The notes beneath the pieces are model-generated. The model was not told the DNA's origin. It did no database searches and was given only the letters and a program-made list of their open reading frames with translations. A program made the position numbers and the translations under genes. 64,000 bases of DNA. Origin: Candidatus Omnitrophota bacterium. Lineage in GTDB: Bacteria > Omnitrophota > Gorgyraeia > Duberdicusellales > 4484-171. The stretch spans positions 5,484-69,483 of the forward strand of contig JAIPHS010000001.1 of assembly GCA_021735105.1 (NCBI GenBank). The letters are read 5' to 3'. Shown piece after piece: positions 41,962 to 63,679 of the stretch. Within the stretch, counting starts at the first letter, position 1. Each line of letters begins with the position of its first letter.

Positions 41962-41995
41962 ATAGTTGATTAGCTTTGATCAAAAAGGAGGTTTT

Positions 41996-42178
41996 ATGAG
42001 TAGAGGTGTCAGCAAAAAAAGAAGTAGGCATTCTAAAAACCAAGATAATCAGAAAGTGTTTGTAGGCTCTTCAATAGTTCACCTTTCAGGATTTTCTCTT
42101 TGTGACAATAAATCGGGAGAATTAGATTTAACCTCATTAACCAGCAAGCAGATTAGAAAAAAAATCGGATGGCTATAA
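41996..42178 (+). CDS. small basic hypothetical protein inserted between mraZ and rsmH
   Basis: about 60 aa from the ATG preceded by RBS 'AAAGGAGG' ('MSRGVSKKRSRHSKNQDNQKV...'). The ORF-track start at 41966 is less likely. Confidence 0.4.
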   Translation: MSRGVSKKRSRHSKNQDNQKVFVGSSIVHLSGFSLCDNKSGELDLTSLTSKQIRKKIGWL

Positions 42179-42181
42179 TTT

Positions 42182-43105: not shown

Positions 43106-43463
43106 AATGCGTAAAATATCACCATTATTATCAGTATTTATTATATTTGCTTTTCTTGTAGTATACCTTCACCAAAAGGTTCAAATTTACACAACTGCAT
43201 TTTACCTGCAAAAAAATTACAATGATTGTCAAGAGCTGGCTGCTAAAAAAGATTATTTAATGCATAATTTTTCAAAGAAAGTTTCTTTATCTCATGTAAG
43301 TAAATGGGTTTTGGCAGAAAAGTTTTTCTCGCCGGAAAAAGGAAAACTTTTGGTGTTTAAGCCTAAGGATCGAATTGAGACTGATGCGGCTTCGAAAAAA
43401 TCACTTTTTGAACGTATTAAGTCTTCTGCTTCAATAGCTGATGTTTTTGCAAAAGATCGGTAA
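43098..43463 (+). CDS. ftsL: FtsL-like cell division protein (single TM plus coiled coil)
   Basis: 121 aa; N-terminal TM 'LLSVFIIFAFLVVYL' then helical region; sits between rsmH and ftsI. Confidence 0.5.
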   Translation: MVKMRKISPLLSVFIIFAFLVVYLHQKVQIYTTAFYLQKNYNDCQELAAKKDYLMHNFSKKVSLSHVSKWVLAEKFFSPEKGKLLVFKPKDRIETDAASKKSLFERIKSSASIADVFAKDR

Positions 43464-43497
43464 AAAGTAACCCGTTTCTTCCTAAAAGCCTAAAACA

Positions 43498-46597: not shown

Positions 46598-46603
46598 ACA
46601 AAA

Positions 46604-47947: not shown

Positions 47948-47961
47948 TAATTACTAGTTTT

Positions 47962-47970
47962 TGGTACAAT
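47962..47970 (+). promoter_or_regulatory. possible internal extended -10 promoter (TGGTACAAT) upstream of mraY
   Basis: TGGTACAAT at 47962-47970, followed by TATAAT at 47970-47975; mraY ATG at 48010. Confidence 0.3.
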
Positions 47971-48009
47971 ATAATTAAAAGTCACATGTCATCTGTAACC
48001 TAAAATATT

Positions 48010-49092: not shown

Positions 49093-49095
49093 TTA

Positions 49096-50346: not shown

Positions 50347-50362
50347 TATAACCGGTTGTTTT

Positions 50363-51517: not shown

Positions 51518-52548
51518 AGGTATTATTAGTATCTGAAAGAAGCGCTGGGCATGTTTATCCGGCTTTGGCTATTGGTGAGAAAATTAAAGAAAGTAACTTA
51601 ATTGATGCTAAAATTGTTTTCTTTACAAGTTCAAGATTTTTCAAAAAATATATTAAAAATAAAGGTTATTCAGTGTTAGGATTAACCTTTCAATTTAGGA
51701 ATATTTTTGTTGAATTTTTTTGCCGTTTTATCGAGTCAATATATATTCTTATCAAAGTTTTTCCTGATATAGTTATTGGATTTGGGGGAAGAGATAGCCT
51801 ATTTTTAGTTTTATTTGCTAGGATGCTTGGCAGGAAAACTTATATTTACGAGCCAAACGCGGAAATGGGCAGGGCTAATAAATTTCTTTCTCTTTTTGTA
51901 AAGAATATATTAAGAGGTATCCCTTCTTCTGATCAAAAGAAGAAATATAGAATTATCGGAATTCCTTTGGGTAAAAATATAGTAAAAAAAGAAAAAGAGA
52001 GGCTAAGAGAAAAGTTTAATTTTAATCAAAAACCTATTATTTTATGCTTTGGCGGCAGTCAAGGTTCTCGTTTTATTAATGATAGTTTTCTTAACTTTAT
52101 AGGAAGACACAATAATAATTCATATCAAATAGCTCATATTACCGGCGCGAAAGATTATTCTAAAGCGGTCGATTTTTATAGAAAAATAAAGAATAATAAA
52201 GTTGTAAAAGATTTCTATCAAGATATGCCTAATTTTTATAATCTAGCTGATGTTATTTTGTCTAGAGCGGGGGCATTGACTTTAGCTGAAATATCTTTTT
52301 ATAACATTCCGGCCATTTTAATTCCTCATCCACAAGCATTTGGGCATCAAAAAACAAATGCAAATTATCTAAAAGATAGAGGTGCTGCAGTTATTTTTGA
52401 ACAAAATAGTTTTGATTTTAAAAAATTTGAACTTTGCTTAAGCAAATTAATTCAAAATAACAGTGCTCGAAAAAATATAAAAAATAATCTTAAAAAAATA
52501 AAAATTGGAATAAAATATGAAGATTTTTCTTTTAATTTTATTAGTTAA
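51514..52548 (+). CDS. murG: UDP-GlcNAc:lipid I N-acetylglucosaminyltransferase MurG
   Basis: 344 aa GT28 fold; 'GHVYPALAIGEKI' N-terminal Gly-rich loop, C-terminal 'SRAGALTLAE'. Confidence 0.7.
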   Translation: MKVLLVSERSAGHVYPALAIGEKIKESNLIDAKIVFFTSSRFFKKYIKNKGYSVLGLTFQFRNIFVEFFCRFIESIYILIKVFPDIVIGFGGRDSLFLVLFARMLGRKTYIYEPNAEMGRANKFLSLFVKNILRGIPSSDQKKKYRIIGIPLGKNIVKKEKERLREKFNFNQKPIILCFGGSQGSRFINDSFLNFIGRHNNNSYQIAHITGAKDYSKAVDFYRKIKNNKVVKDFYQDMPNFYNLADVILSRAGALTLAEISFYNIPAILIPHPQAFGHQKTNANYLKDRGAAVIFEQNSFDFKKFELCLSKLIQNNSARKNIKNNLKKIKIGIKYEDFSFNFIS

Positions 52549-53305
52549 TTCATTTTTTCAAAATGTGTACGCAGAAGTTAAAGATTTTAGACAACTGCGG
52601 AGCAGCCATTTTATTATAAATTATCAGGAAGGGGTAGAAAGATCTTATCTAACTAATATTAAGCAAAAAGCTGAAGATTTTTACAAAAAAATTACCCAGG
52701 AATTTCATTTAGTTCGAGATGAACTTTGGCTTTGGGACAACCGCGCTAAAATTTTTGTAGCTAGAGACAGAAAAGAGTATCTTGATAATTTCAATTGTCC
52801 TAATTGGTCGGCTGCCTGCCTAGACTATAGGGCAAAAAAAGTTTATACATATCCTGGCCAAAAATATTTTATATCAACTCTAGCGCATGAATTGACTCAT
52901 ATTATTTTTCGGGAATATATAAAAAGACAAGATTTACCTCTCTGGCTAGACGAGGGAATGGCCATGTATATAGAAACAAAATTTTCTGATTCGAGATATC
53001 AAGTTTTTTCTGGCCGTATTAAGAAAATGATAAAAGATAATAGTTTTATACCTTTTAAAGAGTTAACAGAGCTCAACACAAGAACCATGAGAGAAAAACC
53101 GGATTCTTATGTAAATACCTTTTATCTGCAGTCTTTTTCTCTTATAAATTTTATAATTGGAAAGTATAAAAAGCATCACTTTTCACAATTTTTGTGGAAC
53201 TTTAAAAATGAATCAAATTTTAGGAAAGCTTTATCTAAAACCTATTATCAACTAAAAAGTTTAAAAGATTTAGAAGAAAGATGGAAAACTTATTATCTAA
53301 AGTAA
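52517..53305 (+). CDS. secreted HEXXH zincin-like putative metallopeptidase inserted in the dcw cluster
   Basis: 262 aa; signal peptide 'MKIFLLILLVNSFFQNVYA'; 'HELTHIIFREY' plus downstream 'LWLDEGMA' (HEXXH...E). No confident family assignment. Confidence 0.5.
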   Translation: MKIFLLILLVNSFFQNVYAEVKDFRQLRSSHFIINYQEGVERSYLTNIKQKAEDFYKKITQEFHLVRDELWLWDNRAKIFVARDRKEYLDNFNCPNWSAACLDYRAKKVYTYPGQKYFISTLAHELTHIIFREYIKRQDLPLWLDEGMAMYIETKFSDSRYQVFSGRIKKMIKDNSFIPFKELTELNTRTMREKPDSYVNTFYLQSFSLINFIIGKYKKHHFSQFLWNFKNESNFRKALSKTYYQLKSLKDLEERWKTYYLK

Positions 53306-54666
53306 AAAAAATTCATTTGATCGGTATTGGCGGTATCGGGATGACTGGCTTGGCACTTCTTTTGCAGGATAAAGGGTTTTTGGTCCAAGGCTCTGATATT
53401 CGTAAAACAGTCAAAACAGGAATACTTGCCAAAAGAGGGATTAAAGTTTATTTTGGGCATAAAAGAACCAATATTGACCCAAAAGTGGATTTAATTTGTT
53501 ATTCTTCAGCTGTTGGTTTAGACAATAGCGAGTTAAAAGAAGCAAAAAGCAAAAAGATAGGTGTGATTAAAAGAGGAAAGTTATTAGCTTTTTTATGTAA
53601 AGATACAAAAACTATAGCAGTAGCAGGAAGCCATGGTAAGACCACAATAGTCTCTCTCTTAAGTTATCTTTTTAAAAAAATTGGTTATACTCCCACAGTA
53701 TTTGTTGGTGGATTACCTGTAGACGGCTCTTTGTCTGCTTCTTGGGGTAGAGACTATTCAATCATAGAAACAGATGAGAGCGATGGAACTTTTCTTGACT
53801 ATGAGCCTCATCTTTCCATTATTACCAATATTGATAAAGAGCATCTAAATTATTATGGTGATTTTACTAATTTAAAAAAGTCATTTTTAAATTTTGCCAA
53901 AAAAACTAAAAAGAAAGTTTTTGGTTTTGGAGGGCAAAAAGAAATTAAAGAAATAATAGATAAAGTCAGGGGTGTTTCTTTTGGGATGGGCTCTGATTGT
54001 AATTTAAGTGCAAAAAATATACGTTCAGATCAAAGGTTTAGTTATTTTGATCTTTATAAGGGAGATGACTTACTGCTGTCGGTAGAGAGCCCTCTTTTAG
54101 GCCGGCATAACTGTTATAATGTGATGGCCGCTTTGGCTATTTTTGATTATTTGGGCCTAAATTTAGAAAAAATAAAGGATTATTTGATTGATTTTAAAGG
54201 TACAAAAAGACGGTTTCAAATAAAAACAAATATTTGCGGAGTAACATTTATAGATGATTATGCTCATCATCCAACTGAAATTAAAGCTACTTTAGAGACA
54301 GCTAGAGCAATACCTGCAAAAAGAATAGTGGCTATTTTACAGCCGCATAGGCCATCAAGGATTAAATCTTTATTTAAAGAATTTTCTTTATGCTTAAGGC
54401 AGGCAGATTTAGTAGTAGTGACTGATACTTATCAAGCTTCTGAACCATATCTAGAGGGAGTAAATAGCTTAAAATTGGTCAAAGCAATCAAAAGCCAGGG
54501 GCACAAAAATATTATTTATATTAATAAAAATAAATTAGAATTAAAAGTTCCAGAGATGATTGAAAAGGGTGATCTAGTTATTTGCCTAGGGGCAGGGGAT
54601 ATAAATAAGAAGTTAGAAAAGATTATTTATGAGTTTAAAAAAATTAAAACCGAAAAAAAATATTAA
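53281..54666 (+). CDS. murC: UDP-N-acetylmuramate--L-alanine ligase MurC
   Basis: 461 aa; 'IGIGGIGMTGLA', 'VAGSHGKTT', 'DDYAHHPTE'. Confidence 0.85.
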   Translation: MENLLSKVKKIHLIGIGGIGMTGLALLLQDKGFLVQGSDIRKTVKTGILAKRGIKVYFGHKRTNIDPKVDLICYSSAVGLDNSELKEAKSKKIGVIKRGKLLAFLCKDTKTIAVAGSHGKTTIVSLLSYLFKKIGYTPTVFVGGLPVDGSLSASWGRDYSIIETDESDGTFLDYEPHLSIITNIDKEHLNYYGDFTNLKKSFLNFAKKTKKKVFGFGGQKEIKEIIDKVRGVSFGMGSDCNLSAKNIRSDQRFSYFDLYKGDDLLLSVESPLLGRHNCYNVMAALAIFDYLGLNLEKIKDYLIDFKGTKRRFQIKTNICGVTFIDDYAHHPTEIKATLETARAIPAKRIVAILQPHRPSRIKSLFKEFSLCLRQADLVVVTDTYQASEPYLEGVNSLKLVKAIKSQGHKNIIYINKNKLELKVPEMIEKGDLVICLGAGDINKKLEKIIYEFKKIKTEKKY

Positions 54667-55486
54667 TTTAAGGCAATTGACTACTTTAGAGATAGGAGGA
54701 AGAGCTGAATATTTCTTTGTGGTTAGAGATAATTTTGAATTGTCAAAATTATTAAAAGAAATTGGAAGCCAATTTTATATTTTAGGTAATGGGTCAAATT
54801 TATTGATAAAAGATGGGCTAATAAAAAAACCAGTTGTAAAATTAATAGATAAATTTGAATTAATAAAACCAAAAGGAAATCTCTTAGAAGTTGGTTCTTC
54901 AACTTTACTTTCTTTTTTGGTAAAATATTGTATTAATAACTGTTTAGGGGGTATAGAAAATTTAGCAGGTATACCTGCAACAGTTGGTGGTATGCTTTCT
55001 TCTGCTGCTTCATCATTTGGAGTTAGTATTTTTAATTATTTAGAAATGGTAGAGGTAATGGATAAATTTGGCAATATTAATATGATTAAAAAAGATAAAA
55101 TTAATTATAGTTATAGGCGTTCCGGCCTAGAAGATAAAATAATAATTAAAGGCTTTTTTAAATTTTCTAAAAACAATAAAGAAATAAAAAAAAAGATACA
55201 GAATATAATTAAAAAAAGAATTACCTTACAAGATTTTTCTTTTCCCAGCTGTGGTTCGGTTTTTAAAAATCCTGTTTCTGCTGTGGCAGGCGCCTTGATA
55301 GAACAGGCTGGTTTGAAGGGAAAGCGAAAAGGTGATATCAAAATTTCAGATAAACATGCTAACTTTATTTTAAATGTAGGAAAAGGTTCATATTGCCAAG
55401 CCGATTATTTAATTAAGCAAATAAAGGATCTTATTTATCAAAGAGAAGGGATTGTTTTAGAGGAAGAAGTTAAAAGATGGAATTAA
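54629..55486 (+). CDS. murB: UDP-N-acetylenolpyruvoylglucosamine reductase MurB
   Basis: 285 aa; FAD-binding N-domain ('LGNGSNLLI'), 'CGSVFKNP' catalytic Ser region. Confidence 0.75.
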   Translation: MSLKKLKPKKNINLRQLTTLEIGGRAEYFFVVRDNFELSKLLKEIGSQFYILGNGSNLLIKDGLIKKPVVKLIDKFELIKPKGNLLEVGSSTLLSFLVKYCINNCLGGIENLAGIPATVGGMLSSAASSFGVSIFNYLEMVEVMDKFGNINMIKKDKINYSYRRSGLEDKIIIKGFFKFSKNNKEIKKKIQNIIKKRITLQDFSFPSCGSVFKNPVSAVAGALIEQAGLKGKRKGDIKISDKHANFILNVGKGSYCQADYLIKQIKDLIYQREGIVLEEEVKRWN

Positions 55487-56409
55487 CAAAGATAAAAGTG
55501 GGAGTTTTGGCTGGGGGGGTCTCTGAAGAAAGAGATATTTCTCTGCTTTCCGGCCGGCAAGTTTTTCAAGCTCTTAAGCGAAGAAACATTAAAGCAGAGT
55601 TGATCGAGATAAAAACTTCAAAAAGCATTCAAATAAAACAAATAATAAAATCAGCTCAAATAGATTTAGCGTTTATTGCTTTGCATGGATTATTTGGAGA
55701 AGATGGCAAAATTCAGTCTATACTGGAAGAAATTCCTATAGCTTATACTGGTTCAGGCCCAGAAGCAAGTTTTTTTTCAATGAATAAAATAGCGGCTAAA
55801 GAAAAATTTAAAAAAGAAGGGGTTCCTACCCCTTTTTTTCGTTTGGCTATTAGCAAAAGCCATAATTATGAAGATATTAATTATCCGGTTGCGGTTAAAC
55901 CTTCTCATTCAGGGTCAAGCTTTGGTATTTCAATAGTCGATACTAGAGAAAAAATAAAGAGGGCTCTAGAGAAGTCTTTGAAATTTAGCGAGTCAGTTAT
56001 TATCGAAGATTTTATTAAAGGCAAAGAGCTAACAGTTGGAGTTTTGGGGAAGAAGCCTCTGGCAGTAGTTGAAATTGTTCCCAAAGGGAAATATTTTGAT
56101 TTTAAAAATAAATATATAAAAGGAAATTCTGTTTTTATTGTACCGGCTAAACTTGATGAAAAGATATATAAACAAGTGCAAGAAGTAGCTTTTGCAGCTC
56201 ATAAAGCTTTAGGGTGCCGTGATTTTTCTCGAGTTGATATAAGATTAGAAGGTAATGTACCGTATGTTTTAGAGGTTAACTCAATACCAGGATTAACAGA
56301 ACGCAGCTTATTGCCGCTTTCTGCTTTTGCTTGCGGAATAAGTTTTGATCAACTAATTTTTAGTTTTTTAAAAGCTGCGTTATTAAGAAAAAATAAAGTT
56401 AAATTATAG
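55477..56409 (+). CDS. ddl: D-alanine--D-alanine ligase
   Basis: 310 aa ATP-grasp; 'HGLFGEDG', 'PVAVKPSHSGSSFGIS', 'LEVNSIPG'. Confidence 0.85.
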   Translation: MELTKIKVGVLAGGVSEERDISLLSGRQVFQALKRRNIKAELIEIKTSKSIQIKQIIKSAQIDLAFIALHGLFGEDGKIQSILEEIPIAYTGSGPEASFFSMNKIAAKEKFKKEGVPTPFFRLAISKSHNYEDINYPVAVKPSHSGSSFGISIVDTREKIKRALEKSLKFSESVIIEDFIKGKELTVGVLGKKPLAVVEIVPKGKYFDFKNKYIKGNSVFIVPAKLDEKIYKQVQEVAFAAHKALGCRDFSRVDIRLEGNVPYVLEVNSIPGLTERSLLPLSAFACGISFDQLIFSFLKAALLRKNKVKL

Positions 56410-56424
56410 GAGAATGAATGTTTT

Positions 56425-57234
56425 ATGGCCAGAAGAAGAAAAAATAAAAAAATAAACATATTTAAAATTTTTACAAATAAATTTTTTATTTGGATTTTTG
56501 CAATTTTTTTAATTATTGGAATTTTTTTATTGGGTGGATATCAAATTTATAGAGCGGATTTTTTTAAGGTTAGTGAAAGAAATTTACAATCAAACCTGGA
56601 TATAAATAGAAATTTTATGAATAAAATAAAAGGGAAGTCAGTTTTTAATATTAATTTAGATAAGTTACATACTTACCTAATACAGCAATATCCGGAATAT
56701 AAAGAGATTAAAATTATAAAAAAATTTCCTAATTTTATCAAAGTTGAAATGAAAGAAAGAAAACCGATTGCTCAAATAAGAGCTAAAAATTTTTATTTAA
56801 TCGATAAAAATGGAGTAATTGTTAGCCGAGGCGAAAATAACCCTTTTGAAAGTTTTCCTGTAATAAATGATTTGTCTTTTGACCAATATTTGGCGAAGGG
56901 AAGAAATATCTACAATGAAAACGTAAGAGCTGCTTTTAGGCTAATAGATATTATTAAAGGCGAAAACTTGCTTGAAGCAATTAATTCTCTTGATACGGAT
57001 TATCAATTTAAGCTAGGAGGTATTAACGTTTCTTCTCCAGAGACAATATATTTCTATTTAAAAAATAAAAAATATTACCAGAGAAGGATTAAAGTTATTT
57101 TAAACCGGCAAGACTTACAAGAAAAAGTAAGCCTTCTCAAGAGGCTTGTAAAGCAAAAATTAAAAGATAAACTATCTTTAATAAGGTATATAGATTTTCG
57201 TTTTCAAAAAGTTGCAGTAGGTTTTAAAAGATAA
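56425..57234 (+). CDS. ftsQ: FtsQ/DivIB-like cell division protein
   Basis: 269 aa; basic N-terminus, single TM 'FFIWIFAIFLIIGIFLLGG', POTRA-like region; position between ddl and ftsA. Confidence 0.6.
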   Translation: MARRRKNKKINIFKIFTNKFFIWIFAIFLIIGIFLLGGYQIYRADFFKVSERNLQSNLDINRNFMNKIKGKSVFNINLDKLHTYLIQQYPEYKEIKIIKKFPNFIKVEMKERKPIAQIRAKNFYLIDKNGVIVSRGENNPFESFPVINDLSFDQYLAKGRNIYNENVRAAFRLIDIIKGENLLEAINSLDTDYQFKLGGINVSSPETIYFYLKNKKYYQRRIKVILNRQDLQEKVSLLKRLVKQKLKDKLSLIRYIDFRFQKVAVGFKR

Positions 57235-57236
57235 TT

Positions 57237-58385
57237 ATGAAAACTTTTTCTGCATTAGTTTTAAAAAAAGACAAAGCTTTTCTTTCTTTTGCTATTCTTA
57301 AAAAGGGATGCCTAAAGCTTTTGGATGAAAAAGAGCTGCTATTGGCAAGTAATGATGATTTTCTTAAACAGTTAAAAGCTAATGCTAAAAAGATAGAGAA
57401 ATTAATAATTAATTTTGAACAAAAACATTCTTTCTCTGTAGGAAAAATATTTATGGAGTTACCTTCGGACCTGGCCGATGAGGTTGAAGTACAAGAGAAA
57501 GTAGTTTTCCCTAAAAAAAAGAAAATTACTCCATCAACTATTGATTCTGTCAAAAAATATATTGAAGACAAATTTCTTGAATGGAATCAACGCTGTGTAC
57601 ATCATATTGTTTTAGATTATCAAACTGAAGGTATACAAACTAATGATGCACCCTTACAGGTTTTTACTAATAAAATAAAATTCAGGTCTTTACTTATTTA
57701 TGTAAAAGAGGATTTTTATAAAGAAGTTACTGATATCTTTTATAATATGGAAAGAAATTTTGCCGGATTCATAGCACATAAAATAAGTGCTTTTTCGCAG
57801 GGTTTTAATAACTTAGAAGGAAATCAAATTGTAATTGGTGTTAATAATTTTAACAGCTATGCCGGCATAAAAGATGAAAAAGGAAGGCTATTTGAAAAAA
57901 AATTTAGTTTTGGTGTAAAAGAAGTTACCGAAGAGTTGGCCAAGCAATACGTAATAGCACCTTCTGTAGCTGAGCAGCTGTTAAAGAGCTATGGATCTTT
58001 TAAAGAAATTCCTTATTTTAAAGAAATAACTATCAAAAAACAAGATAGTTATCTAAATTTAAGTACTAAAGTTTTGAGCAATTTTTTAAAAAAAGTTTTT
58101 TCAAGTAATATAAAACTAATCATAGAGGAGGTTTTAAAAGTTGTTAAGGAAGGCAAAAGAGATGAAGCCGTTTTTTCTTTTATTGGGCCTTTAACTACAA
58201 AAGATGGTTTTTATGGCTATATTAAAAAATTATTAACCGTCAAAATTGAAGTGCCTGCTTATAAGTGTAGTTCTCCTGCTTTTGGCTGTATAAAGTATGG
58301 TTATTTTAAACCATTAGAAAATGAGCATCTGAAAAAACAATCTTTATTAAGGAAAATAAAAAAAATTTACCATGAATATTTTTAA
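57237..58385 (+). CDS. ftsA: divergent FtsA-like actin-fold protein (nucleotide-binding motifs degenerate)
   Basis: 382 aa; alignable by eye to FtsA in the phosphate-2/adenosine regions ('QIVIGVNNFNSYAG' vs 'VVDIGGGTMDIAV'; 'IAPSVAEQLLKSYG' vs 'TPPSDAEAIKVRHG'). Canonical DxGT and GGG motifs are absent. Confidence 0.5.
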   Translation: MKTFSALVLKKDKAFLSFAILKKGCLKLLDEKELLLASNDDFLKQLKANAKKIEKLIINFEQKHSFSVGKIFMELPSDLADEVEVQEKVVFPKKKKITPSTIDSVKKYIEDKFLEWNQRCVHHIVLDYQTEGIQTNDAPLQVFTNKIKFRSLLIYVKEDFYKEVTDIFYNMERNFAGFIAHKISAFSQGFNNLEGNQIVIGVNNFNSYAGIKDEKGRLFEKKFSFGVKEVTEELAKQYVIAPSVAEQLLKSYGSFKEIPYFKEITIKKQDSYLNLSTKVLSNFLKKVFSSNIKLIIEEVLKVVKEGKRDEAVFSFIGPLTTKDGFYGYIKKLLTVKIEVPAYKCSSPAFGCIKYGYFKPLENEHLKKQSLLRKIKKIYHEYF

Positions 58386-58410
58386 TTTAAATTTATTGTA
58401 AAAGATAAGC

Positions 58411-60312
58411 ATGAATAATGGTATATATCAAGATTTTGTAAAGAAGTTTAAGGTTGCGCTTACAAATTGTTCAATTTATTTTCCTCAACATCCTATTTTT
58501 TTTCAATCAGTAAATAATTTTAAAAAAAGTATCAATTTAGTTGCTCAAGATGAGCTTTTTCTTTTAATTAAAGTAAAACCAAAAGCTCTTATTATTAACG
58601 GGAAAAACCTAGAGGAGGTAAGTTTATATAAAGATTTAGCGACTTTTTTTCATCGGAGAAAAGTAAAGAGCATAAAAATAGAAAAAGAAATTACTGCTGA
58701 AGAACTATCTAAATTTTTAGTAAATATTTCTTCTAGCGAAAAAAATATTTTAGCTAAAGGAGGAATAAAAAAAATATTAAAAGAAAATGAAGTAAAAAAT
58801 ATTGAAATTGATGAGCTTGATTATTCACAATTGATAAAAGGAGAAGGTAAGGGAGTAAAAGATATTTGGAGTTATATTTTAAGGTCTGAAGATACGCAAG
58901 GCAATAATAAAGTTACTGCTGATAAATTTGCTGATAAGTTTAGAAAAATAACAGAGAAATATGGGGTTAAAGAAATTCTCGAAGATAAAAGAATGTTCAA
59001 GCAGCTGCTGGATTTAGTTGAAAAAATTGAAGATAAAGATAATTTTAAAAAAATTATCGAAAGTTTAGTTAGATCTATTTTAGATGATGAGAGTCTGGAT
59101 AAAATAACAAACAAAGAACAATTTAAGAGTTTATTTTTTAAGGTTGATCTGCAAGATTTGGCAAATCTTTTGTCTAAGTTTTTACAATCTGATAAACGCT
59201 TCAATCCGGCATCTTTTAGATTATTTTCTACATTAATATCTCCAGATGCTCATAAAGTGGTTGCAGGCAGTTTAAACAGAGAGATTAAGGCAGGAAAAAG
59301 TAAGTTTGATATAGACAAAATCAGAAATTTGTTTGAATCTCTTGATGATCAAAGTATTGTACCTATTTATCAAAAAAATTTATCTTTGGATAATTTAGAT
59401 AGCGTTAGCAAAAGAGAATTTTCTTTCGATTATAATCATTTGCATCAAAATTATCGTTTACTTCTTCTTGATTTGTTTTTTTATGAAACTAGTGAATTCC
59501 GCCTTGTTTTAATCTTAAAAAAAATATTGCTAGAAATAGAAAGGAATTTTTTGGACAATATAGAGTTTGTTAATAAATTTGCCAAGATATATATTAAAAA
59601 AACAATCGATACAAGATCAAAAGAGCTTAATAGCACAATAAAGAAGGTTTGGTCTCAATCTGAAAAAAATATTTTTAAAACAGATGATTTTAAAAACTTT
59701 ATTTTTTTAACAAAAGTTCTGAAAACAACTACGTTAGATGTTTATTTTTATTTAGATGAAATTGAAGAAAAAAAATTTAATCCTTTAGTTTTAAAACTTT
59801 TTTTTAAATTTTTTCCAAAACAAATAGATAAATTATATAAAAAAATTAAAGACAAAAGAAAAGATTATGATTTTTTAAAAAAAATTATAACGGATTTAAA
59901 GTTAAGCAATCATTTTGCTGCTTTAGATCTTTTAAAGCGTTTGTTTAATTTGGTGCCTATTTTAGTAAAAATTGAGATATTAGACATAATTAAAAATTAT
60001 CCTCAATGTGATCAAAATTTTATATTATCTCTGGTTAATAGCCAAAGCTTTCATATTCGCAAAAAATCTGTTGAGATGGCAGTTAAATTTCCTCAGCTGC
60101 ATAAACAAACAGCCCAAAAGCTTCTTTCTTTATCAAATTATTTTGGATTCAATTCTAAAATTATTTTAGAAAATTTAGAAATAATCAATCAAAATTATAT
60201 TCCTCAAGCTAGGCCTTTTTTAGATAAGTTAACAAGGAGGGGTTTTTTCTGGGATAGGCAAATAAGAAAAAAAGCCAAACAGGTGTTGGAAAATCATCTG
60301 GAAAATAGATAA
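58411..60312 (+). CDS. hypothetical protein: N-terminal domain paralogous to the next gene's N-domain, plus long alpha-helical (HEAT-like) C-terminal region
   Basis: 633 aa; the first about 130 aa ('YFPQHPIFF...LATFFHRRKVKSIKIEKEITAEELSKFL') parallels the first about 110 aa of ORF 60324 ('YGGQHPEFN...LINKFKSKGFEKLTFRKNVTKDELKAIF'). The rest is K/E-rich and helical. Confidence 0.5.
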   Translation: MNNGIYQDFVKKFKVALTNCSIYFPQHPIFFQSVNNFKKSINLVAQDELFLLIKVKPKALIINGKNLEEVSLYKDLATFFHRRKVKSIKIEKEITAEELSKFLVNISSSEKNILAKGGIKKILKENEVKNIEIDELDYSQLIKGEGKGVKDIWSYILRSEDTQGNNKVTADKFADKFRKITEKYGVKEILEDKRMFKQLLDLVEKIEDKDNFKKIIESLVRSILDDESLDKITNKEQFKSLFFKVDLQDLANLLSKFLQSDKRFNPASFRLFSTLISPDAHKVVAGSLNREIKAGKSKFDIDKIRNLFESLDDQSIVPIYQKNLSLDNLDSVSKREFSFDYNHLHQNYRLLLLDLFFYETSEFRLVLILKKILLEIERNFLDNIEFVNKFAKIYIKKTIDTRSKELNSTIKKVWSQSEKNIFKTDDFKNFIFLTKVLKTTTLDVYFYLDEIEEKKFNPLVLKLFFKFFPKQIDKLYKKIKDKRKDYDFLKKIITDLKLSNHFAALDLLKRLFNLVPILVKIEILDIIKNYPQCDQNFILSLVNSQSFHIRKKSVEMAVKFPQLHKQTAQKLLSLSNYFGFNSKIILENLEIINQNYIPQARPFLDKLTRRGFFWDRQIRKKAKQVLENHLENR

Positions 60313-60323
60313 TTATTAAAGAT

Positions 60324-61658
60324 ATGAAAGAAAATATTGAAAAATTTTTAAAAAATTTCTCATCTTGTTTTCAGCTTGCTCAAATGTATGGGGGTCAGCA
60401 TCCGGAATTTAATAAGGCCCTCTTAGAGACATATCAAGAGTTGACGCAAATATTAAAAGATCAAGAAGAACTAACTATAGCAGCCGTGGGCGGAGAATTG
60501 ACAAGTGGAGACAGTATTTTCTTTGATTTAAGTAAAAAGTTAACAACTTTAATTAATAAATTTAAAAGCAAGGGCTTTGAGAAATTAACTTTTAGAAAAA
60601 ATGTTACAAAAGATGAATTAAAGGCTATTTTTTTATTTTTTCTAGCTCAAAAAGATAAAAAAGCTGATATAGAAGAACAACTTAAATTGCAGGGAATAAA
60701 AAGTATTAAAATCGGTAAAATTCAAGAAGCTGATTCTAAAGAAGGTAAAAAAGAGGAGGATCCCAAAAAATCTTTTAGCCAGCTATATACAAAATCTGTG
60801 GCTAATTTATCATCTTCTTTAGGTGATCTTATTGAAAAAGAACTATTAGATTTTACAAAGTTTGGTTCAGTTGTAAATAACCTAATGGAAGGAGTTGACT
60901 ATCATTATCAAGAGATATTAAAGTTATCTAAGTTAAAGGGGAAAGACACTGTTACCTTTGCTCATCTTTTAAATGTTTCTTTTTTATCTATACATTTTGC
61001 TAAATTTTTGGGTCTCAATAACTCTGAGTCTAAAAAAATTGGCCTAGCTTCTCTCTTCCATGATATTGGTAAGATTTATATCTCAAATAGAATACTTAAA
61101 GGGGGAAAACTTAGTGATGAAGAATTCGAAAAAATAAAAAGCCATTCGGTTTTAGGCGCGGCAATTCTTCTTAATTTTGTCGATAAATTGGGGGAATTAG
61201 TGCCGGTAGTTGCTTTTGAGCATCATCTAAAGTTTGGTTCCGGGGGTTATCCTAGACTAAATTTTCCTCGGCGTCTTCACTTTGCTTCAATGTTGATTAC
61301 ACTTTGTGATGTCTATGATGCCTTAAGTCAAAGGCGTAGTTATAAAAATAGTTTTCCTCCAGAGCAAATTTATAAAATTATGAAAGAAGGGAGAGATTCA
61401 CAATTTGATCCTTTGCTTTTTGATAATTTTTTCACATTTTTAGGAGTTTGGCCAAACGGGACAGTTATTTTATTAAGTAATGGTAAGGTTGCTCGGGTTA
61501 AGAGTCAAAATCCTGATAATATTTTTTCTCCTGAGGTTGAAGTAGTTTCTGATACTCCGCATAAGATTATTGATTTAAAACAAGACGGCCTAAACTTAAA
61601 AATTAAAAAATCTCTAAATCCCTACAAGGAAGGCAAGCATTACCTAAGTGCTGATTAG
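60324..61658 (+). CDS. HD-GYP domain protein (putative c-di-GMP phosphodiesterase) with N-terminal DUF3391-like sensor-type domain
   Basis: 444 aa; 'SLFHDIGK' (HD), 'HHLKFGSGGYP' (GYP), 'DVYDAL'. The N-domain is paralogous to ORF 58411. Confidence 0.75.
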   Translation: MKENIEKFLKNFSSCFQLAQMYGGQHPEFNKALLETYQELTQILKDQEELTIAAVGGELTSGDSIFFDLSKKLTTLINKFKSKGFEKLTFRKNVTKDELKAIFLFFLAQKDKKADIEEQLKLQGIKSIKIGKIQEADSKEGKKEEDPKKSFSQLYTKSVANLSSSLGDLIEKELLDFTKFGSVVNNLMEGVDYHYQEILKLSKLKGKDTVTFAHLLNVSFLSIHFAKFLGLNNSESKKIGLASLFHDIGKIYISNRILKGGKLSDEEFEKIKSHSVLGAAILLNFVDKLGELVPVVAFEHHLKFGSGGYPRLNFPRRLHFASMLITLCDVYDALSQRRSYKNSFPPEQIYKIMKEGRDSQFDPLLFDNFFTFLGVWPNGTVILLSNGKVARVKSQNPDNIFSPEVEVVSDTPHKIIDLKQDGLNLKIKKSLNPYKEGKHYLSAD

Positions 61659-61718: not shown

Positions 61719-62843
61719 ATGATTAAACAACCAATAATCCATATTTTTCATATTTCCAACTTTGGCGGCCATAGCCAAGCTGCCTTGAATATTAAAGAAG
61801 CTATTTTAGCTAAAAATAGCAGTGCTGAAATTGTAAATTTAAATAGTTTTCAGTATTTCTATCCTCGCACAGAAAAGGTAATAGATACTATTTATAAACT
61901 AGTAATTAAAAGAATTCCTTCTCTTTGGGGTAAGGCTTATGACCATAAAGCAGTAGCTAAATACTTAAGGCCGTGGCATACAGTTATTAACTATATTTGT
62001 TTTCCTAAATTGCGCAAATATATAAAGGCTAAAAAACCAAATTGTTTTATTACTACTCAAGCTTTTCCTTGCGGAATAATTGCGGATTATAAAAAAAAGC
62101 ATAAGCCAGGCATACCCTTAATTGCTGTAGTTACTGATTTTCATCCGCATCGTTTCTGGATGCATCCTTATGTTGATCAATATATAGTTGCTTCAGGTGA
62201 AGCAAAGACGACATTAATTAAAGAAGGTGTAGCTGAAGATAAAATAGCCGTTTTTGGAATTCCCATATCTATTAAGTTTATGAATAATTCTCTTGATAAA
62301 AGGTTTATGCAAAAATTAGGTTTTTCTTCTCAATTGAAATCAATTTTAGTTATGGGAGGAGGACTGGGTATGGGCCCAATTGAAAAAATTGTAACAAATC
62401 TTGACCATCTAGATCACAACTTTCAAGTAATTGTAGTTTGTGGCAAAAACAGAACTCTTTACCGCAAGTTGCAAAAAATAAAAAATAAAATAAAAAAACC
62501 ATTATTTATTTTTAGCTACATAGAATATATAAACAAAATAATGGATTTTTCTGACATTATTATCACCAAAGCCGGTGGAATTACTGTATCTGAGGCTTTA
62601 GTAAAAAAAATGGCAATAATAATTACAAATCCTATTCCCGGCCAAGAGGAGCTAAATGTCAATTTTTTACTTAAAAGAAATGCAATTATAAAGGCAGACA
62701 CCTTAAAACAGATAAATGAAAGTGTAGCTAATCTAATAGAGAATCCGGATAGATTAAAATTTTTGAAAGAAAATGCTAAAAAAAATTCTCTCGAAGATTC
62801 TTCAGCTAAAATTGCCAATTTAATTTTTAAATTTATTAACTGA
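61719..62843 (+). CDS. MGDG-synthase-like / UgtP-like diacylglycerol glycosyltransferase (GT28 family)
   Basis: 374 aa; N-terminal 'GGHSQAA' MGDG_synth-type region and C-terminal GT-B nucleotide-sugar domain ('ITKAGGITVSEAL', 'GQEELN'). Confidence 0.6.
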   Translation: MIKQPIIHIFHISNFGGHSQAALNIKEAILAKNSSAEIVNLNSFQYFYPRTEKVIDTIYKLVIKRIPSLWGKAYDHKAVAKYLRPWHTVINYICFPKLRKYIKAKKPNCFITTQAFPCGIIADYKKKHKPGIPLIAVVTDFHPHRFWMHPYVDQYIVASGEAKTTLIKEGVAEDKIAVFGIPISIKFMNNSLDKRFMQKLGFSSQLKSILVMGGGLGMGPIEKIVTNLDHLDHNFQVIVVCGKNRTLYRKLQKIKNKIKKPLFIFSYIEYINKIMDFSDIIITKAGGITVSEALVKKMAIIITNPIPGQEELNVNFLLKRNAIIKADTLKQINESVANLIENPDRLKFLKENAKKNSLEDSSAKIANLIFKFIN

Positions 62844-63679
62844 TGTATTATCTTTTTATTCTAGGAAAAATAATTGCTTTAAGCGGGCCGCGAATAATTT
62901 CTTATCAAGTTGCTAAGTTTTTTGCTTTACTTCATTATTATCTTTCTAAAAAAGATAGAAATGCTGTTTTTTATAATTTAAGGCCTTTAGTTCAAAAAGA
63001 GAAAAAAAGAAAAGAAATTGCAAGAAAAGTTTTTATTAATTTTGCCTACTATCTTACTGATTTTTTTTGCTATTCAAGATTAACCAGAAAATTTATTAAA
63101 AAATACGTTAGTTTTCAAGGGCTGGATTCAGTTGATAAAGCGATTAAAGAAAAAAGAGGAGCGATACTGCTCACTGCTCATTTAGGAAACTATGAATTAG
63201 GCGGAGCAGTTATGTCATTGTTGGGTTATCCTTTATCAGTGGTTGCTTTGCCACACCTTGATTTGCGTACTAATAATTTTTTTAACAAACAACGTAGGAG
63301 AGTAGGGGTTGATGTGATTCCTACCGGAGCTGCAATAAAAAGAAGTATAAAAGTTTTAAATCAAGGAAAGCTACTGGCTTTACTTGGAGACAGAGATTTC
63401 TCACATTCTGGCAGAAAACAAAAGTTTTTTTCACGATTTGCAGAAATTCCGCGGGGAGCAGCTTTTTTTGCAAAAAAAACCGGTGCAGTAGTAATTCCTA
63501 CTTTTTTAGTCCGGGAAAAGAAATACAATTACCGGCTTATCTTTGAAAAAGAGATTAAATATAACAGGGAAGATAAAAACGGTGAGGAAGATATACTTAA
63601 GAAATACGTATCTGTATTAAAAAAATATTTAAAAAAATATCCTGACCAGTGGTATTTGTTTCAAAAGTACTGGCAGTAA
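62843..63679 (+). CDS. LpxL/HtrB-family lysophospholipid (lipid A-type) acyltransferase
   Basis: 278 aa; N-terminal TM, 'LTAHLGNYELGG' (HX4E acyltransferase motif), 'LGDRD'. Confidence 0.6.
   Translation: MYYLFILGKIIALSGPRIISYQVAKFFALLHYYLSKKDRNAVFYNLRPLVQKEKKRKEIARKVFINFAYYLTDFFCYSRLTRKFIKKYVSFQGLDSVDKAIKEKRGAILLTAHLGNYELGGAVMSLLGYPLSVVALPHLDLRTNNFFNKQRRRVGVDVIPTGAAIKRSIKVLNQGKLLALLGDRDFSHSGRKQKFFSRFAEIPRGAAFFAKKTGAVVIPTFLVREKKYNYRLIFEKEIKYNREDKNGEEDILKKYVSVLKKYLKKYPDQWYLFQKYWQ

What the first reader, a model, noticed from the sequence alone, without database searches (positions are those of the whole stretch)
57237..61658. dcw cluster ends in a degenerate FtsA, with a paralogous gene pair carrying HD-GYP where ftsZ is expected
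The division/cell-wall cluster is complete and collinear from mraZ through ftsQ. The protein after ftsQ aligns to FtsA in several blocks but has lost the canonical phosphate-binding DxG and GGG motifs. That suggests a non-catalytic or highly derived FtsA. No ftsZ follows, and no tubulin GGGTGTG motif is anywhere in the window. The next two genes share a clearly paralogous about 110-130 aa N-terminal domain, of the kind found N-terminal to HD-GYP domains. The first is fused to a long helical region and the second to a bona fide HD-GYP domain. A c-di-GMP phosphodiesterase pair embedded at the ftsZ position of a dcw operon is unusual. It could couple second-messenger signalling to division in this lineage.
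Basis: partly seen in the sequence, partly recalled or inferred. Interest (0 to 1): 0.6.

Follow-up and report, generated by a model that had tools for sequence, protein, structure and literature searches.

The report
FtsA without ATP site or FtsZ
In this uncultured Omnitrophota bacterium the cell-division gene cluster ends with a well-conserved FtsA that has lost its ATP-binding motifs and has no ftsZ after it, followed by a phylum-specific signalling gene pair, which fits a phylum that may divide without the usual FtsZ ring.

Summary
The window comes from a Candidatus Omnitrophota MAG. mraZ to ftsQ is a collinear dcw cluster. The next gene (57237-58385) is a true FtsA orthologue. Its model (pLDDT 91) matches only FtsA structures at the top (TM 0.70-0.75), and it keeps the C-terminal membrane helix. 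All three nucleotide-binding motifs are gone. It is not decaying: dN/dS is 0.14-0.19, like ddl.

No ftsZ lies in the window. None follows ftsA in 0 of 50 Omnitrophota-type loci, against 10 of 10 loci from other phyla. In other Omnitrophota, yggS and proC abut ftsA directly, which suggests loss in place. Pende et al. 2021 already list Omnitrophica as FtsZ-less but FtsA-positive. Whole-genome absence was not testable here.

The next two genes do share a 135-aa N-domain (hhalign E=3.7e-9). That domain is not DUF3391. The first gene adds an alpha-solenoid. The second adds an intact HD-GYP domain. The pair is restricted to Omnitrophota and moves as a unit: in four distant relatives it sits away from ftsA. 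A link to division therefore rests only on clade-specific adjacency.

Verdict: a new variant of known kinds, of moderate interest.

The parts
41524..57234 (+). dcw cluster from mraZ to ftsQ: mraZ, rsmH, a 121-aa ORF at the ftsL position, ftsI, murE, murF, mraY, murD, ftsW, murG, an HExxH peptidase-like gene, murC, murB, ddl and ftsQ
   Evidence: Pfam hits; NCBIfam. The same gene order is seen in relatives L001, L004, L006 and L007.
56425..57234 (+). ftsQ (POTRA plus FtsQ/DivIB C-terminal domain). It ends 2 bp before the FtsA-like gene.
   Evidence: PF03799 at E=1.6e-8 and POTRA_1 at E=8.8e-4.
57237..58385 (+). FtsA orthologue (382 aa) without nucleotide-binding motifs
   Evidence: TIGR01174 at E=4.8e-9. 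A family profile against PDB hits only FtsA. The AlphaFold2 model has pLDDT 91.2. The top 19 Foldseek hits are all FtsA, TM 0.70-0.75. dN/dS is 0.14-0.19.
57252..57275 (+). Position equivalent to the phosphate-1 loop (residues 6-13, ALVLKKDK); the canonical sequence is G-L-D-I-G-T-T-K
   Evidence: MAFFT alignment with canonical and intermediate FtsA. The beta1-beta2 hairpin of the model lies at residues 3-22. The motif is present in 0 of 17 clade members.
57828..57869 (+). Position equivalent to the phosphate-2 loop (residues 198-211, IVIGVNNFNSYAGI); the canonical sequence is V-V-D-I-G-G-G-T-T-D-I
   Evidence: Alignment. The hairpin is at E197-202 and E207-212 in the model. D-x-G-G-G-T is present in 0 of 17 clade and 0 of 36 other Omnitrophota FtsA, against 11 of 11 canonical FtsA.
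58173..58199 (+). Position equivalent to the adenosine motif (residues 313-321, FSFIGPLTT); the canonical sequence is V-L-T-G-G
58341..58382 (+). C-terminal amphipathic helix (SLLRKIKKIYHEYF), the putative membrane-targeting sequence
   Evidence: Helix 370-381 in the model. The hydrophobic moment is 0.68, against 0.69 for the E. coli FtsA membrane-targeting sequence. The '(E/D)YF' ending is shared with canonical and intermediate FtsA. Y378, Y381 and F382 are invariant in alignment A1.
58411..60312 (+). 'X' (633 aa): N-domain plus alpha-solenoid, with no catalytic domain detected
   Evidence: No Pfam or NCBIfam family. Homologues are all hypothetical Omnitrophota proteins of about 560-720 aa, mostly 620-670 aa. 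AlphaFold2 pLDDT is 83.5. Foldseek gives only weak HEAT/ARM solenoid hits. Relative P0134 hits Pfam HEAT_2.
58411..58818 (+). Shared N-domain of X (residues 1-136, alpha/beta)
   Evidence: hhalign of A2 against A3 gives E=3.7e-9. Secondary structure. An exhaustive profile search finds 749 representatives, with the domain at the N-terminus in all of the best 150 listed.
58849..60300 (+). All-helical repeat region of X (residues 147-630)
   Evidence: It does not align with confidence to the HD-GYP domain.
60324..61658 (+). HD-GYP protein (444 aa): the same N-domain plus an HD-GYP phosphodiesterase domain
   Evidence: PF13487 at E=9.1e-15. The best solved relative is the HD-GYP protein 4mcw at E=9e-25, over residues 194-370.
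60324..60722 (+). Shared N-domain of the HD-GYP protein (residues 1-133)
60903..61442 (+). HD-GYP catalytic domain. Motifs are H214, H248-D249, H275, H301-H302, G308-Y309-P310 and D329.
   Evidence: The motifs are conserved in 12 of 12 orthologues.
61719..63679 (+). Downstream context: an MGDG-synthase-like glycosyltransferase and an LpxL-like lipid A acyltransferase. A 60-bp gap precedes the first of them.
   Evidence: Pfam hits. These genes are syntenic in L001, L006, L007, L016 and L089.

Best explanation
The locus is the 3' end of the dcw cluster of an Omnitrophota bacterium.

Shown:
- The gene after ftsQ is the FtsA orthologue of a clade in which FtsA has lost all nucleotide-binding motifs.
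- It keeps the whole FtsA fold, including the FtsA-specific domain arrangement, and the C-terminal amphipathic membrane helix.
- It is under strong purifying selection.
- ftsZ does not follow ftsA in any Omnitrophota-type locus examined.
- In other Omnitrophota, the genes that normally lie behind ftsZ (yggS, proC) abut ftsA directly.
- The phosphate-2 loop of FtsA is already lost across the phylum.

Inferred:
- ftsZ was deleted in place early in the phylum. Published surveys of five genomes point the same way.
- FtsA then survived as a nucleotide-independent, membrane-anchored scaffold. It would link the cytoplasmic face of the membrane to the retained FtsQ, FtsW and FtsI septal peptidoglycan machinery.

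The two following genes form a separate, Omnitrophota-specific two-gene module. One is an alpha-solenoid (HEAT-like) protein. The other is an active-looking HD-GYP cyclic-dinucleotide phosphodiesterase. They share an N-terminal alpha/beta domain of about 135 aa.

Inferred for the pair:
- The shared N-domains let the two proteins pair up, or respond to the same signal.
- The solenoid partner localises or regulates the phosphodiesterase.

In the window's clade this module has been parked directly behind ftsA and is probably co-transcribed with it. In other lineages it sits elsewhere. Any control of division by it is possible but not shown.
For: FtsA identity:
- Collinear TIGR01174 match at E=4.8e-9.
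- A family profile against PDB hits only FtsA.
- The AlphaFold2 model has pLDDT 91.2 and pTM 0.87.
- The top 19 Foldseek hits are all FtsA, at TM 0.70-0.75. PilM reaches about 0.55 and MreB about 0.48.
- There is a graded series from canonical FtsA, through intermediate Omnitrophota FtsA, to this clade.

Motif loss:
- Canonical FtsA: phosphate-1 in 10 of 11, phosphate-2 in 11 of 11, adenosine in 11 of 11.
- Other Omnitrophota: 23 of 36, 0 of 36 and 14 of 36.
- This clade: 0 of 17 for all three.

Membrane helix kept: hydrophobic moment 0.68, against 0.69 for E. coli, with a shared '(E/D)YF' end.

Selection: dN/dS is 0.14-0.19, against 0.18 for ddl and 0.22 for ftsQ.

ftsZ:
- None in the window.
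- 0 of 50 Omnitrophota-type loci with at least 1.5 kb behind ftsA have it, against 10 of 10 loci from other phyla.
- yggS and proC, which follow ftsZ-pgeF in Nitrospira-type loci, sit 21-187 bp behind ftsA in Omnitrophota, at 40-47% identity.
- Pende et al. 2021 list FtsZ as absent in 4 of 5 Omnitrophica genomes and FtsA as present in 4 of 5.

The pair:
- N-domain paralogy at E=3.7e-9.
- HD-GYP motifs conserved in 12 of 12 orthologues. The closest solved structure is the HD-GYP protein 4mcw at E=9e-25.
- X has a solenoid fold, and one relative hits HEAT_2.
- There are 749 representatives of the N-domain. Among the best 150 listed, about 114 are of the 620-670 aa type and about 15 of the 430-480 aa type; most of the rest are shorter than 400 aa and probably fragments. 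All but one of the named members checked are labelled Omnitrophota.
- X and its partner are adjacent or overlapping in every context seen.
- The pair follows FtsA-like in about 14 clade lineages, with junctions from -3 to +89 bp.
Against: - Whole-genome absence of ftsZ was not tested here. The window is 64 kb of a MAG, and only about 20 kb per relative could be read.
- Rivas-Marin et al. 2016 and 2017 count Omnitrophica as FtsZ-positive, on the basis of OLB16. A 2025 survey calls dcw genes 'highly conserved' in the phylum.
- Motif loss is read from alignments at 12-15% identity and from a predicted model. A non-canonical nucleotide site cannot be excluded.
- The scaffold role, the N-domain pairing and the phosphodiesterase substrate are inferences.
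- No GGDEF cyclase was seen in the fetched DNA, though that DNA covers only dcw neighbourhoods.
- No promoter or terminator signal above chance defines the transcription unit.
Confidence: 0.7

Rival explanations
1. This is an ordinary FtsZ-dependent division system with a split gene cluster. ftsZ has simply moved elsewhere in the genome, and the divergent FtsA still tethers it to the membrane.
For: - Only 64 kb of the genome is visible.
- Rivas-Marin et al. list Omnitrophica among FtsZ-containing PVC phyla.
- dcw genes are called highly conserved in Omnitrophota in PMC12283558.
- FtsA is retained under strong constraint and keeps its membrane helix, as expected of an FtsZ tether.
- The two PVC phyla known to lack FtsZ also lack FtsA.
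Against: - Pende et al. 2021 found no FtsZ in 4 of 5 Omnitrophica genomes. The one positive genome was OLB16.
- 0 of 50 Omnitrophota-type loci carry ftsZ behind ftsA, and the downstream genes yggS and proC have closed up on ftsA.
- The phylum-wide erosion of the FtsA phosphate-2 loop is unexpected for a canonical FtsZ partner.
- No FtsZ-dependent accessory genes (minC, zapA, sepF) lie in the window.
Confidence: 0.2
2. The HEAT-like/HD-GYP pair is a division regulator. It is co-transcribed with ftsQ and ftsA. It docks on the FtsA scaffold and makes septation depend on cyclic-dinucleotide levels.
For: - The junctions are tight or overlapping: 25 and 11 bp in the window, and -3 or 0 bp between FtsA-like and X in L007, L011, L012, L013 and L022.
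- The arrangement is kept while FtsA-like identity falls to 36-40%.
- The interval between ftsA and the MGDG-synthase gene always holds at least one HD-GYP gene in this clade. L016 has a receiver protein plus a different HD-GYP protein there, and L013, L015 and L021 have both modules. The exception is the L004/L005/L009 branch.
Against: - In four of four more distant lineages looked at, the pair lies elsewhere: polA/rpe, laminin-G/RHS, NUDIX/OmpA and pilMNOPQ.
- Clade members L004, L005 and L009 have groES-groEL behind FtsA-like instead.
- The whole neighbourhood downstream is syntenic too, so conserved order is not specific to ftsA and the pair.
- There is no expression or interaction evidence.
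Confidence: 0.15
3. The pair belongs functionally with the envelope genes downstream (MGDG-synthase-like glycosyltransferase, LpxL-like acyltransferase, GT2), or it is a free-standing signalling unit. Its position next to ftsA would then be an accident of gene order.
For: - The same downstream genes follow the pair in L001, L006, L007 and L089. They also follow the alternative HD-GYP module in L016.
- The pair occurs as a unit in unrelated contexts.
Against: - A 60-bp gap with a promoter-like site (61677-61705) separates the HD-GYP gene from the glycosyltransferase gene, whereas the junctions with ftsA-like are tighter.
- In the distant contexts the envelope genes do not accompany the pair.
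Confidence: 0.45
4. The FtsA-like gene is a decaying relic (pseudogene in progress) left after the loss of FtsZ.
For: - All ATP-binding motifs are lost, and no Pfam family is recognised.
Against: - dN/dS is 0.14-0.19, equal to or below that of ddl and ftsQ.
- The ORF is intact at 379-400 aa in the roughly 15 full-length clade loci. Twenty-nine protein clusters were found, and 25 columns are invariant in the alignment of 25 of them.
- The fold prediction is very confident.
- The C-terminal helix is conserved.
Confidence: 0.02

Closest known systems
FtsA (bacterial actin-like division protein; TIGR01174; structures 1e4f, 4a2a, 3wqt, 7q6d)
   Same: - It sits directly after ftsQ at the end of the dcw cluster.
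- It has the full FtsA fold (TM 0.70-0.75 over about 380 columns), ahead of PilM and MreB.
- It has a C-terminal amphipathic helix ending in '(E/D)YF', as canonical relatives do.
   Different: - Identity to solved FtsA is 12-15%.
- It scores 35.8 bits against a cutoff of 175.85, and has no Pfam hit.
- The phosphate-1, phosphate-2 and adenosine motifs are all absent.
- No ftsZ lies next to it.
FtsZ-less division in Chlamydiota and Planctomycetota (PVC superphylum)
   Same: - It belongs to the same superphylum.
- ftsZ is missing from the dcw cluster while the peptidoglycan synthesis genes and ftsQ, ftsW and ftsI are kept.
- Omnitrophica are already listed with these phyla as FtsZ-less in Pende et al. 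2021.
   Different: - Those phyla have also lost FtsA. Here FtsA is retained, constrained and remodelled.
- Absence of ftsZ from the whole genome was not verified here.
HD-GYP phosphodiesterases (Persephonella marina PmGH, 4mcw; Vibrio cholerae V-cGAP3, 5z7c; Pseudomonas PA4781, 4r8z)
   Same: - The catalytic domain (residues 194-373) has all the H/HD/H/HH/GYP/D motifs.
- The match to 4mcw is E=9e-25.
   Different: - The N-terminal domain has no relative in Pfam, or by sequence in PDB.
- The gene is always paired with a non-catalytic paralogue that carries the same N-domain.
- The substrate is unknown.
DUF3391 (PF11871), the N-terminal domain of many proteobacterial HD-GYP proteins
   Same: - It occupies the same position, N-terminal to HD-GYP, and has a similar size.
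   Different: - No sequence match appears in either full-length protein at E<=1 or in 16 N-domains at E<=10.
- A fold comparison could not be run.
HEAT/ARM alpha-solenoid scaffolds (for example the PP2A A subunit, 3dw8, and importins)
   Same: - The C-terminal roughly 480 residues of X are stacked helical hairpins.
- The best Foldseek hits are solenoids.
- One relative passes the Pfam HEAT_2 cutoff.
   Different: - TM-scores are only 0.1-0.27.
- The window's own protein has no repeat-family hit.
- The similarity is generic.
PilM (type IV pilus actin-like protein)
   Same: - It has an actin-like fold with an FtsA-type extra domain.
- It is the second-best structural class.
   Different: - TM is only about 0.55.
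- There is no pilNOPQ context in the window.
- The dcw position and the graded sequence series point to FtsA instead.

Membership tests
FtsA | Actin-like fold with the FtsA-specific domain arrangement (the 1C/SHS2 insertion) | tested here: met
   AlphaFold2 pLDDT is 91.2. The top 19 PDB hits are all FtsA at TM 0.70-0.75 and E from 1e-18 to 3e-24. PilM reaches about 0.55.
FtsA | Sequence score above the curated family cutoff (TIGR01174, or Pfam FtsA/SHS2_FTSA) | tested here: not met
   TIGR01174 scores 35.8 bits against a cutoff of 175.85. There is no Pfam hit at E<=1.
FtsA | Nucleotide-binding motifs (phosphate-1 DxGxxxxK, phosphate-2 DxGGGT, adenosine GG) | tested here: not met
   All three are absent in the window and in 17 of 17 clade members.
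FtsA | C-terminal amphipathic membrane-targeting helix | tested here: met
   The helix spans residues 370-381. Its hydrophobic moment is 0.68, against 0.69 for E. coli. The '(E/D)YF' ending is conserved.
FtsA | Gene located after ftsQ at the end of the dcw cluster | tested here: met
   There is a 2-bp gap after ftsQ. The same position is seen in all relatives.
FtsA | Partnership with FtsZ (adjacent ftsZ; binding of the FtsZ C-terminal peptide) | tested here: not met
   For adjacency, none is found in the window or in 50 Omnitrophota-type loci. Binding cannot be tested with these tools.
HD-GYP phosphodiesterase | HD_5/HD domain above the Pfam cutoff | tested here: met
   PF13487 scores 55.2 bits against 27.2, and PF01966 scores 43.4 against 22.
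HD-GYP phosphodiesterase | Metal-ligand and signature residues (H, HD, H, HH, GYP, D) | tested here: met
   The motifs are FAHLLNV, LFHDIGK, KSHSVLG, EHHLKFGSGGYP and CDVYDAL. They are conserved in 12 of 12 orthologues and align to 4mcw.
HD-GYP phosphodiesterase | Hydrolysis of c-di-GMP or another cyclic dinucleotide | not testable with these tools
   This needs an enzyme assay. The next-best solved relative (5z7c) is deposited as a 3'3'-cGAMP-specific phosphodiesterase, so the substrate is open.
DUF3391 (PF11871) | Match to the Pfam model | tested here: not met
   There is no hit at E<=1 for the full proteins, and none at E<=10 in 16 N-domains.
HEAT-repeat proteins | Repeat-family match or alpha-solenoid fold for the C-terminal part of X | tested here: inconclusive
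   The window protein has no repeat hit. Relative P0134 hits HEAT_2 at 30.4 bits against 27.7. Foldseek gives solenoid hits only, at TM no higher than 0.27.
FtsZ-less PVC-type division | No FtsZ/tubulin homologue anywhere in the genome | tested here: inconclusive
   None is found in 64 kb of window or in 1.02 Mb of Omnitrophota-type dcw neighbourhoods. The literature reports absence in 4 of 5 genomes. Whole genomes could not be read here.

The most novel reading that the evidence does not exclude
Omnitrophota build an FtsZ-independent divisome around a nucleotide-free, membrane-anchored FtsA scaffold. In this clade the co-transcribed HEAT-like/HD-GYP pair docks on that scaffold, so that cyclic-dinucleotide levels gate septation. 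That would be a signalling-controlled replacement for Z-ring regulation.
Probability: 0.1. Interest if true: 0.85.

Novelty: new variant of a known kind. Interest (0 to 1): 0.55.

Why it matters

The locus points to a third situation in the same superphylum:
- ftsZ is gone from its usual place.
- FtsA is kept under strong selection.
- FtsA's ATP site has been progressively dismantled. The phosphate-2 loop is lost in 53 of 53 Omnitrophota FtsA examined, and all three motifs are lost in this clade.

If whole-genome absence of FtsZ is confirmed, this gives a natural series for asking two things. What does FtsA do on its own? Is nucleotide binding needed only for its work with FtsZ?

The HEAT-like/HD-GYP pair adds an undescribed N-terminal domain family, with about 750 representative clusters, apparently confined to Omnitrophota. 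It also adds a catalytic/non-catalytic partner arrangement for HD-GYP enzymes.

Tried and rejected
- Exact look-up of the window's FtsA-like protein found no contig on record. Relatives were used instead.
- DUF3391 as the identity of the shared N-domain is rejected. There is no hit.
- The idea that X is a degenerate HD-GYP paralogue over its whole length is rejected. hhalign is confident only over the N-domain, and the fold is a solenoid.
- A word-indexed protein search with the N-domain profile returned only two fragments. The exhaustive search was needed and found 749 representatives.
- The promoter and terminator scan found nothing above the shuffled expectation (46 against 40.7 promoter-like sites; 8 against 4.4 terminator-like sites). 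It does not define the operon.
- A GGDEF motif search in all fetched loci found none. This says nothing about whole genomes.
- The supplements of PMC12283558 hold no Omnitrophota rows. Seymour et al. 2023 does not discuss division.
- The pseudogene hypothesis for FtsA-like is rejected by dN/dS and conservation.
- A direct test for ftsZ elsewhere in the genome could not be designed within the tools. The homology search scores only the 8000 best word-sharing candidates.
They scored 260-372 and 221-373 bits on canonical loci, and the FtsA segment agrees with the 7q6d alignment shown.

Full report
**Source and setting**

The window has about 31% G+C, and every ORF of 100 aa or more that has a Pfam match lies on the + strand. 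The FtsA-like protein and the protein after it are 100% identical to NCBI entries K9L69_00210 and K9L69_00215. Both are 'MAG: hypothetical protein [Candidatus Omnitrophica bacterium]', on a 71.8-kb contig.

The rest of the window holds housekeeping genes: purine synthesis, fatty-acid synthesis, leucine genes, recG, xerC-like and others. None is an FtsZ partner such as minC, zapA or sepF.

**Observation check**

mraZ to ftsQ is a collinear dcw cluster by Pfam.
- A 121-aa ORF with no family match sits at the ftsL position.
- An HExxH/Peptidase_MA_2-like gene lies between murG and murC.

No tubulin signature exists in any frame. The paralogy of the two N-domains is weak in a pairwise comparison (24% identity, E=0.027). 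It is clear once four orthologues of each are compared profile to profile: probability 96%, E=3.7e-9, 131 columns.

**The FtsA-like protein**

Pfam sees nothing at E<=1. NCBIfam TIGR01174 (ftsA) matches collinearly, residues 45-307 against model positions 45-304, at E=4.8e-9 and far below its cutoff. A profile of 25 family members hits only FtsA chains in the PDB (E=1.2e-3).

AlphaFold2 on that alignment gives pLDDT 91.2 and pTM 0.87. Foldseek against the PDB returns FtsA from S. aureus, T. maritima, Vibrio, Xenorhabdus and E. coli as its top 19 hits, at TM 0.70-0.75 over about 380 columns and 12-15% identity. PilM (TM about 0.55) and MreB (about 0.48) follow. It is therefore an FtsA in fold and in gene position.

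I fetched 80 ddl-anchored loci from one genome per species. FtsA falls into three grades:
- Canonical FtsA, in Nitrospirota, deltaproteobacterial, Verrucomicrobia, NPL-UPA2 and other loci.
- An intermediate Omnitrophota type, scoring 44-167 bits to E. coli FtsA and 0-100 bits to the clade profile.
- The window's clade, with no detectable E. coli score and 150-594 bits to the clade profile.

The nucleotide-binding motifs track these grades (alignment, alignment-free counts):

| Grade | Phosphate-1 | Phosphate-2 | Adenosine GG |
|---|---|---|---|
| Canonical | 10/11 | 11/11 | 11/11 |
| Intermediate Omnitrophota | 23/36 | 0/36 | 14/36 |
| Window's clade | 0/17 | 0/17 | 0/17 |

In the window, ALVLKKDK, IVIGVNNFNS and FIGP stand where GLDIGTTK, VVDIGGGTTD and TGG would be. 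These positions match the beta-hairpins of the model.

The protein is not degenerating:
- dN/dS against three orthologues is 0.14-0.19. For comparison, ddl gives 0.18 and ftsQ 0.22.
- Twenty-five columns are invariant across the 25 aligned family members, which range down to 29% identity to the window protein.
- The C-terminal amphipathic helix is kept. It reads SLLRKIKKIYHEYF and has a hydrophobic moment of 0.68, against 0.69 for the E. coli FtsA membrane-targeting sequence. Its '(E/D)YF' ending is shared with canonical and intermediate FtsA.

**ftsZ**

In the 10 canonical loci with sequence behind ftsA, ftsZ follows within 13-196 bp. In 50 Omnitrophota-type loci with at least 1.5 kb behind ftsA (31 intermediate, 19 clade), there is no FtsZ match and no tubulin signature. 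These loci are part of 1.02 Mb of Omnitrophota-type sequence, and both methods pick out exactly the same 10 ORFs.

In Nitrospira-type loci the order is ftsA-ftsZ-pgeF-yggS-proC. In many intermediate Omnitrophota, yggS or proC lies 21-187 bp behind ftsA, at 40-47% identity to the Nitrospira-type proteins. That is the footprint of a deletion in place rather than of a moved cluster.

The literature is split:
- Rivas-Marin et al. 2016 and 2017 count Omnitrophica as FtsZ-positive. [quoted passage not shown]
- Pende et al. 2021 list Omnitrophica with Planctomycetes and Chlamydiae as lacking FtsZ. Their Supplementary Data show FtsZ = NA in 4 of 5 genomes and FtsA present in 4 of 5.

An FtsZ-less, FtsA-retaining phylum is thus already on record, though only in a figure legend and a table. 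I found no description of the loss of FtsA's nucleotide-binding motifs in the papers I searched. I could not read whole genomes, so absence of ftsZ from this genome remains inferred. I put it at about 0.75-0.8.

**The two downstream genes**

The 444-aa protein has an HD_5 domain (E=9e-15). It carries every HD-GYP signature residue, and these are conserved in 12 of 12 orthologues. Its closest solved relatives are the HD-GYP protein 4mcw (E=9e-25, residues 194-370), a 3'3'-cGAMP-specific phosphodiesterase (5z7c) and a cyclic di-GMP phosphodiesterase (4r8z). From my own knowledge, these are Persephonella PmGH, Vibrio V-cGAP3 and Pseudomonas PA4781.

The 633-aa protein ('X') matches no family. Its model (pLDDT 83.5, pTM 0.47) has an alpha/beta N-domain (residues 1-136) followed by about 30 helices. 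Foldseek finds only generic HEAT/ARM solenoids at TM no higher than 0.27, and one relative passes the Pfam HEAT_2 cutoff. Beyond the N-domain it does not align with confidence to the HD-GYP domain.

The shared N-domain is not DUF3391. An exhaustive profile search finds 749 representative clusters at E<=1e-3, and 212 at E<=1e-10. Among the best 150, the domain is always N-terminal, and the full-length proteins fall mainly into two length classes, about 620-670 aa and about 430-480 aa. Of the members I looked up that carry an organism label, all but one are Candidatus Omnitrophota; the exception is labelled Elusimicrobia.

**Is the pair tied to division?**

Within the window's clade the order ftsQ, FtsA-like, X, HD-GYP, MGDG-synthase-like glycosyltransferase, LpxL-like acyltransferase is kept while FtsA-like identity falls to 36-40%. 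This holds in about 14 lineages: L001, L006, L007, L011-L013, L015, L018, L019, L021, L022, L026 and L089.

The junctions are tight. In the window the gaps are 2, 25 and 11 bp. Several relatives show overlaps of 0 to -3 bp between FtsA-like and X. That fits co-transcription. However, the promoter and terminator scan is uninformative, and the genes downstream are just as syntenic.

Variants exist inside the clade:
- L004, L005 and L009 have groES-groEL behind FtsA-like.
- L016, a complete chromosome, has a receiver protein plus a different 385-aa HD-GYP protein in the same slot.
- L013, L015 and L021 have both modules.

Outside the clade, all four X-type genes I could place lie elsewhere:
- polA / S15 peptidase / X / HD-GYP / rpe / pgi.
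- laminin-G / X / a 364-aa partner / ATP-grasp / RHS.
- NUDIX / X / HD-GYP / OmpA.
- pilMNOPQ / X / HD-GYP / AsnC.

X and its partner always stay together, usually overlapping by a few bases. The pair is therefore an autonomous two-gene module, and its place behind ftsA is a feature of this clade only.

**Most likely mechanism**

Shown:
- An FtsA orthologue with an intact fold and membrane helix, no nucleotide motifs, and strong constraint.
- No ftsZ at the locus across the phylum.
- An intact HD-GYP enzyme paired with a solenoid paralogue.

Inferred:
- After loss of ftsZ, FtsA persisted as a nucleotide-independent membrane scaffold for the retained FtsQ, FtsW and FtsI machinery.
- The shared N-domains mediate pairing or common signal input.
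- The solenoid partner positions or regulates the phosphodiesterase.

Cyclic-di-GMP control of division has precedents in other bacteria (my own knowledge, not tested here). Here it rests on adjacency alone.

**Comparison and novelty**

The FtsA-like protein works like FtsA, and by descent it is an FtsA. It fails two defining tests of the family as curated: the score cutoff and the ATP motifs. It also lacks the adjacent partner gene.

The HD-GYP protein is a regular family member with a new N-terminal domain and an obligate non-catalytic partner gene.

Both are new variants of known kinds. The FtsZ-less state of the phylum is already in the literature.

**Limits**

- No whole-genome search for ftsZ was possible.
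- Two fold libraries were unavailable, so the N-domain fold is unassigned.
- The motif calls rest on low-identity alignments and a predicted structure.
- No expression or biochemical data exist.

Noticed in passing
window 52517-53305 (+): An HExxH / Peptidase_MA_2-like gene (262 aa) is inserted between murG and murC inside the dcw cluster. Its ends overlap both neighbours. Homologues occupy the same spot in 16 of 23 clade loci and 21 of 39 other Omnitrophota-type loci. None is found in the 11 canonical, non-Omnitrophota loci.
   Followed up: partly
window 43098-43463 (+): A 121-aa ORF with a TTG start sits at the ftsL position, between rsmH and ftsI. It has no Pfam match. It is presumably a divergent FtsL.
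   Followed up: no
L016:11730-16000 (CP070797.1), and also L013, L015 and L021: Between FtsA-like and the MGDG-synthase-like gene, some clade members carry a 119-126-aa response-regulator receiver protein and a second, different HD-GYP protein of 385-406 aa. This module either replaces the X/HD-GYP pair or is added to it. The interval therefore behaves as a recurrent 'HD-GYP slot'.
   Followed up: partly
L092:969-8568: In one distant lineage the X/HD-GYP pair lies directly behind a pilM-pilN-pilO-pilP-pilQ operon. PilM is the closest structural relative of FtsA. The pair thus follows an operon that starts with an FtsA/PilM-fold gene in two unrelated contexts. This may be coincidence.
   Followed up: no
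window 1021-2379 and 38863-39831 (+): Two other genes in the window may encode nucleotide-messenger hydrolases. One is a 7TM-7TMR_HD protein between phoH and ybeY. The other is a DHH/DHHA1 protein.
   Followed up: no
L024-L087 (intermediate Omnitrophota loci), e.g. L044:9951-11270 and L055:4419-5681: In Omnitrophota outside the window's clade, FtsA keeps D-x-G but has lost the G-G-T part of the phosphate-2 loop in 36 of 36 cases. In many of these loci yggS or proC sits 21-187 bp behind ftsA, where other phyla have ftsZ-pgeF.
   Followed up: yes
L004/L005:11142-13230 and 19190-21140: In the most divergent clade member, groES and a 552-aa gene follow FtsA-like directly. The 552-aa gene is presumably groEL, though no Pfam hit is on record for it. 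A ribonucleotide reductase gene nearby carries an intein with LAGLIDADG domains.
   Followed up: no
Record titles of L009, L011, L017, L028, L033 and others; proteins P0014/P0039 and P0216: Many contigs with the Omnitrophota-type dcw cluster are labelled 'uncultured Planctomycetia/Planctomycetales bacterium'. Single proteins are labelled Babeliales or Elusimicrobia. These look like taxonomic mislabels of MAGs rather than a wider distribution.
   Followed up: no
window 1-64000: All genes with a family match lie on the + strand, and GC skew is positive in every 2-kb bin. This fits a long stretch of co-oriented genes on a leading strand.
   Followed up: no
window 61677-61705 (+): The only promoter-like site with an extended -10 TG (TTTACC-17-TATAGT) lies in the 60-bp gap between the HD-GYP gene and the glycosyltransferase gene. 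It could mark the start of a separate transcription unit.
   Followed up: no
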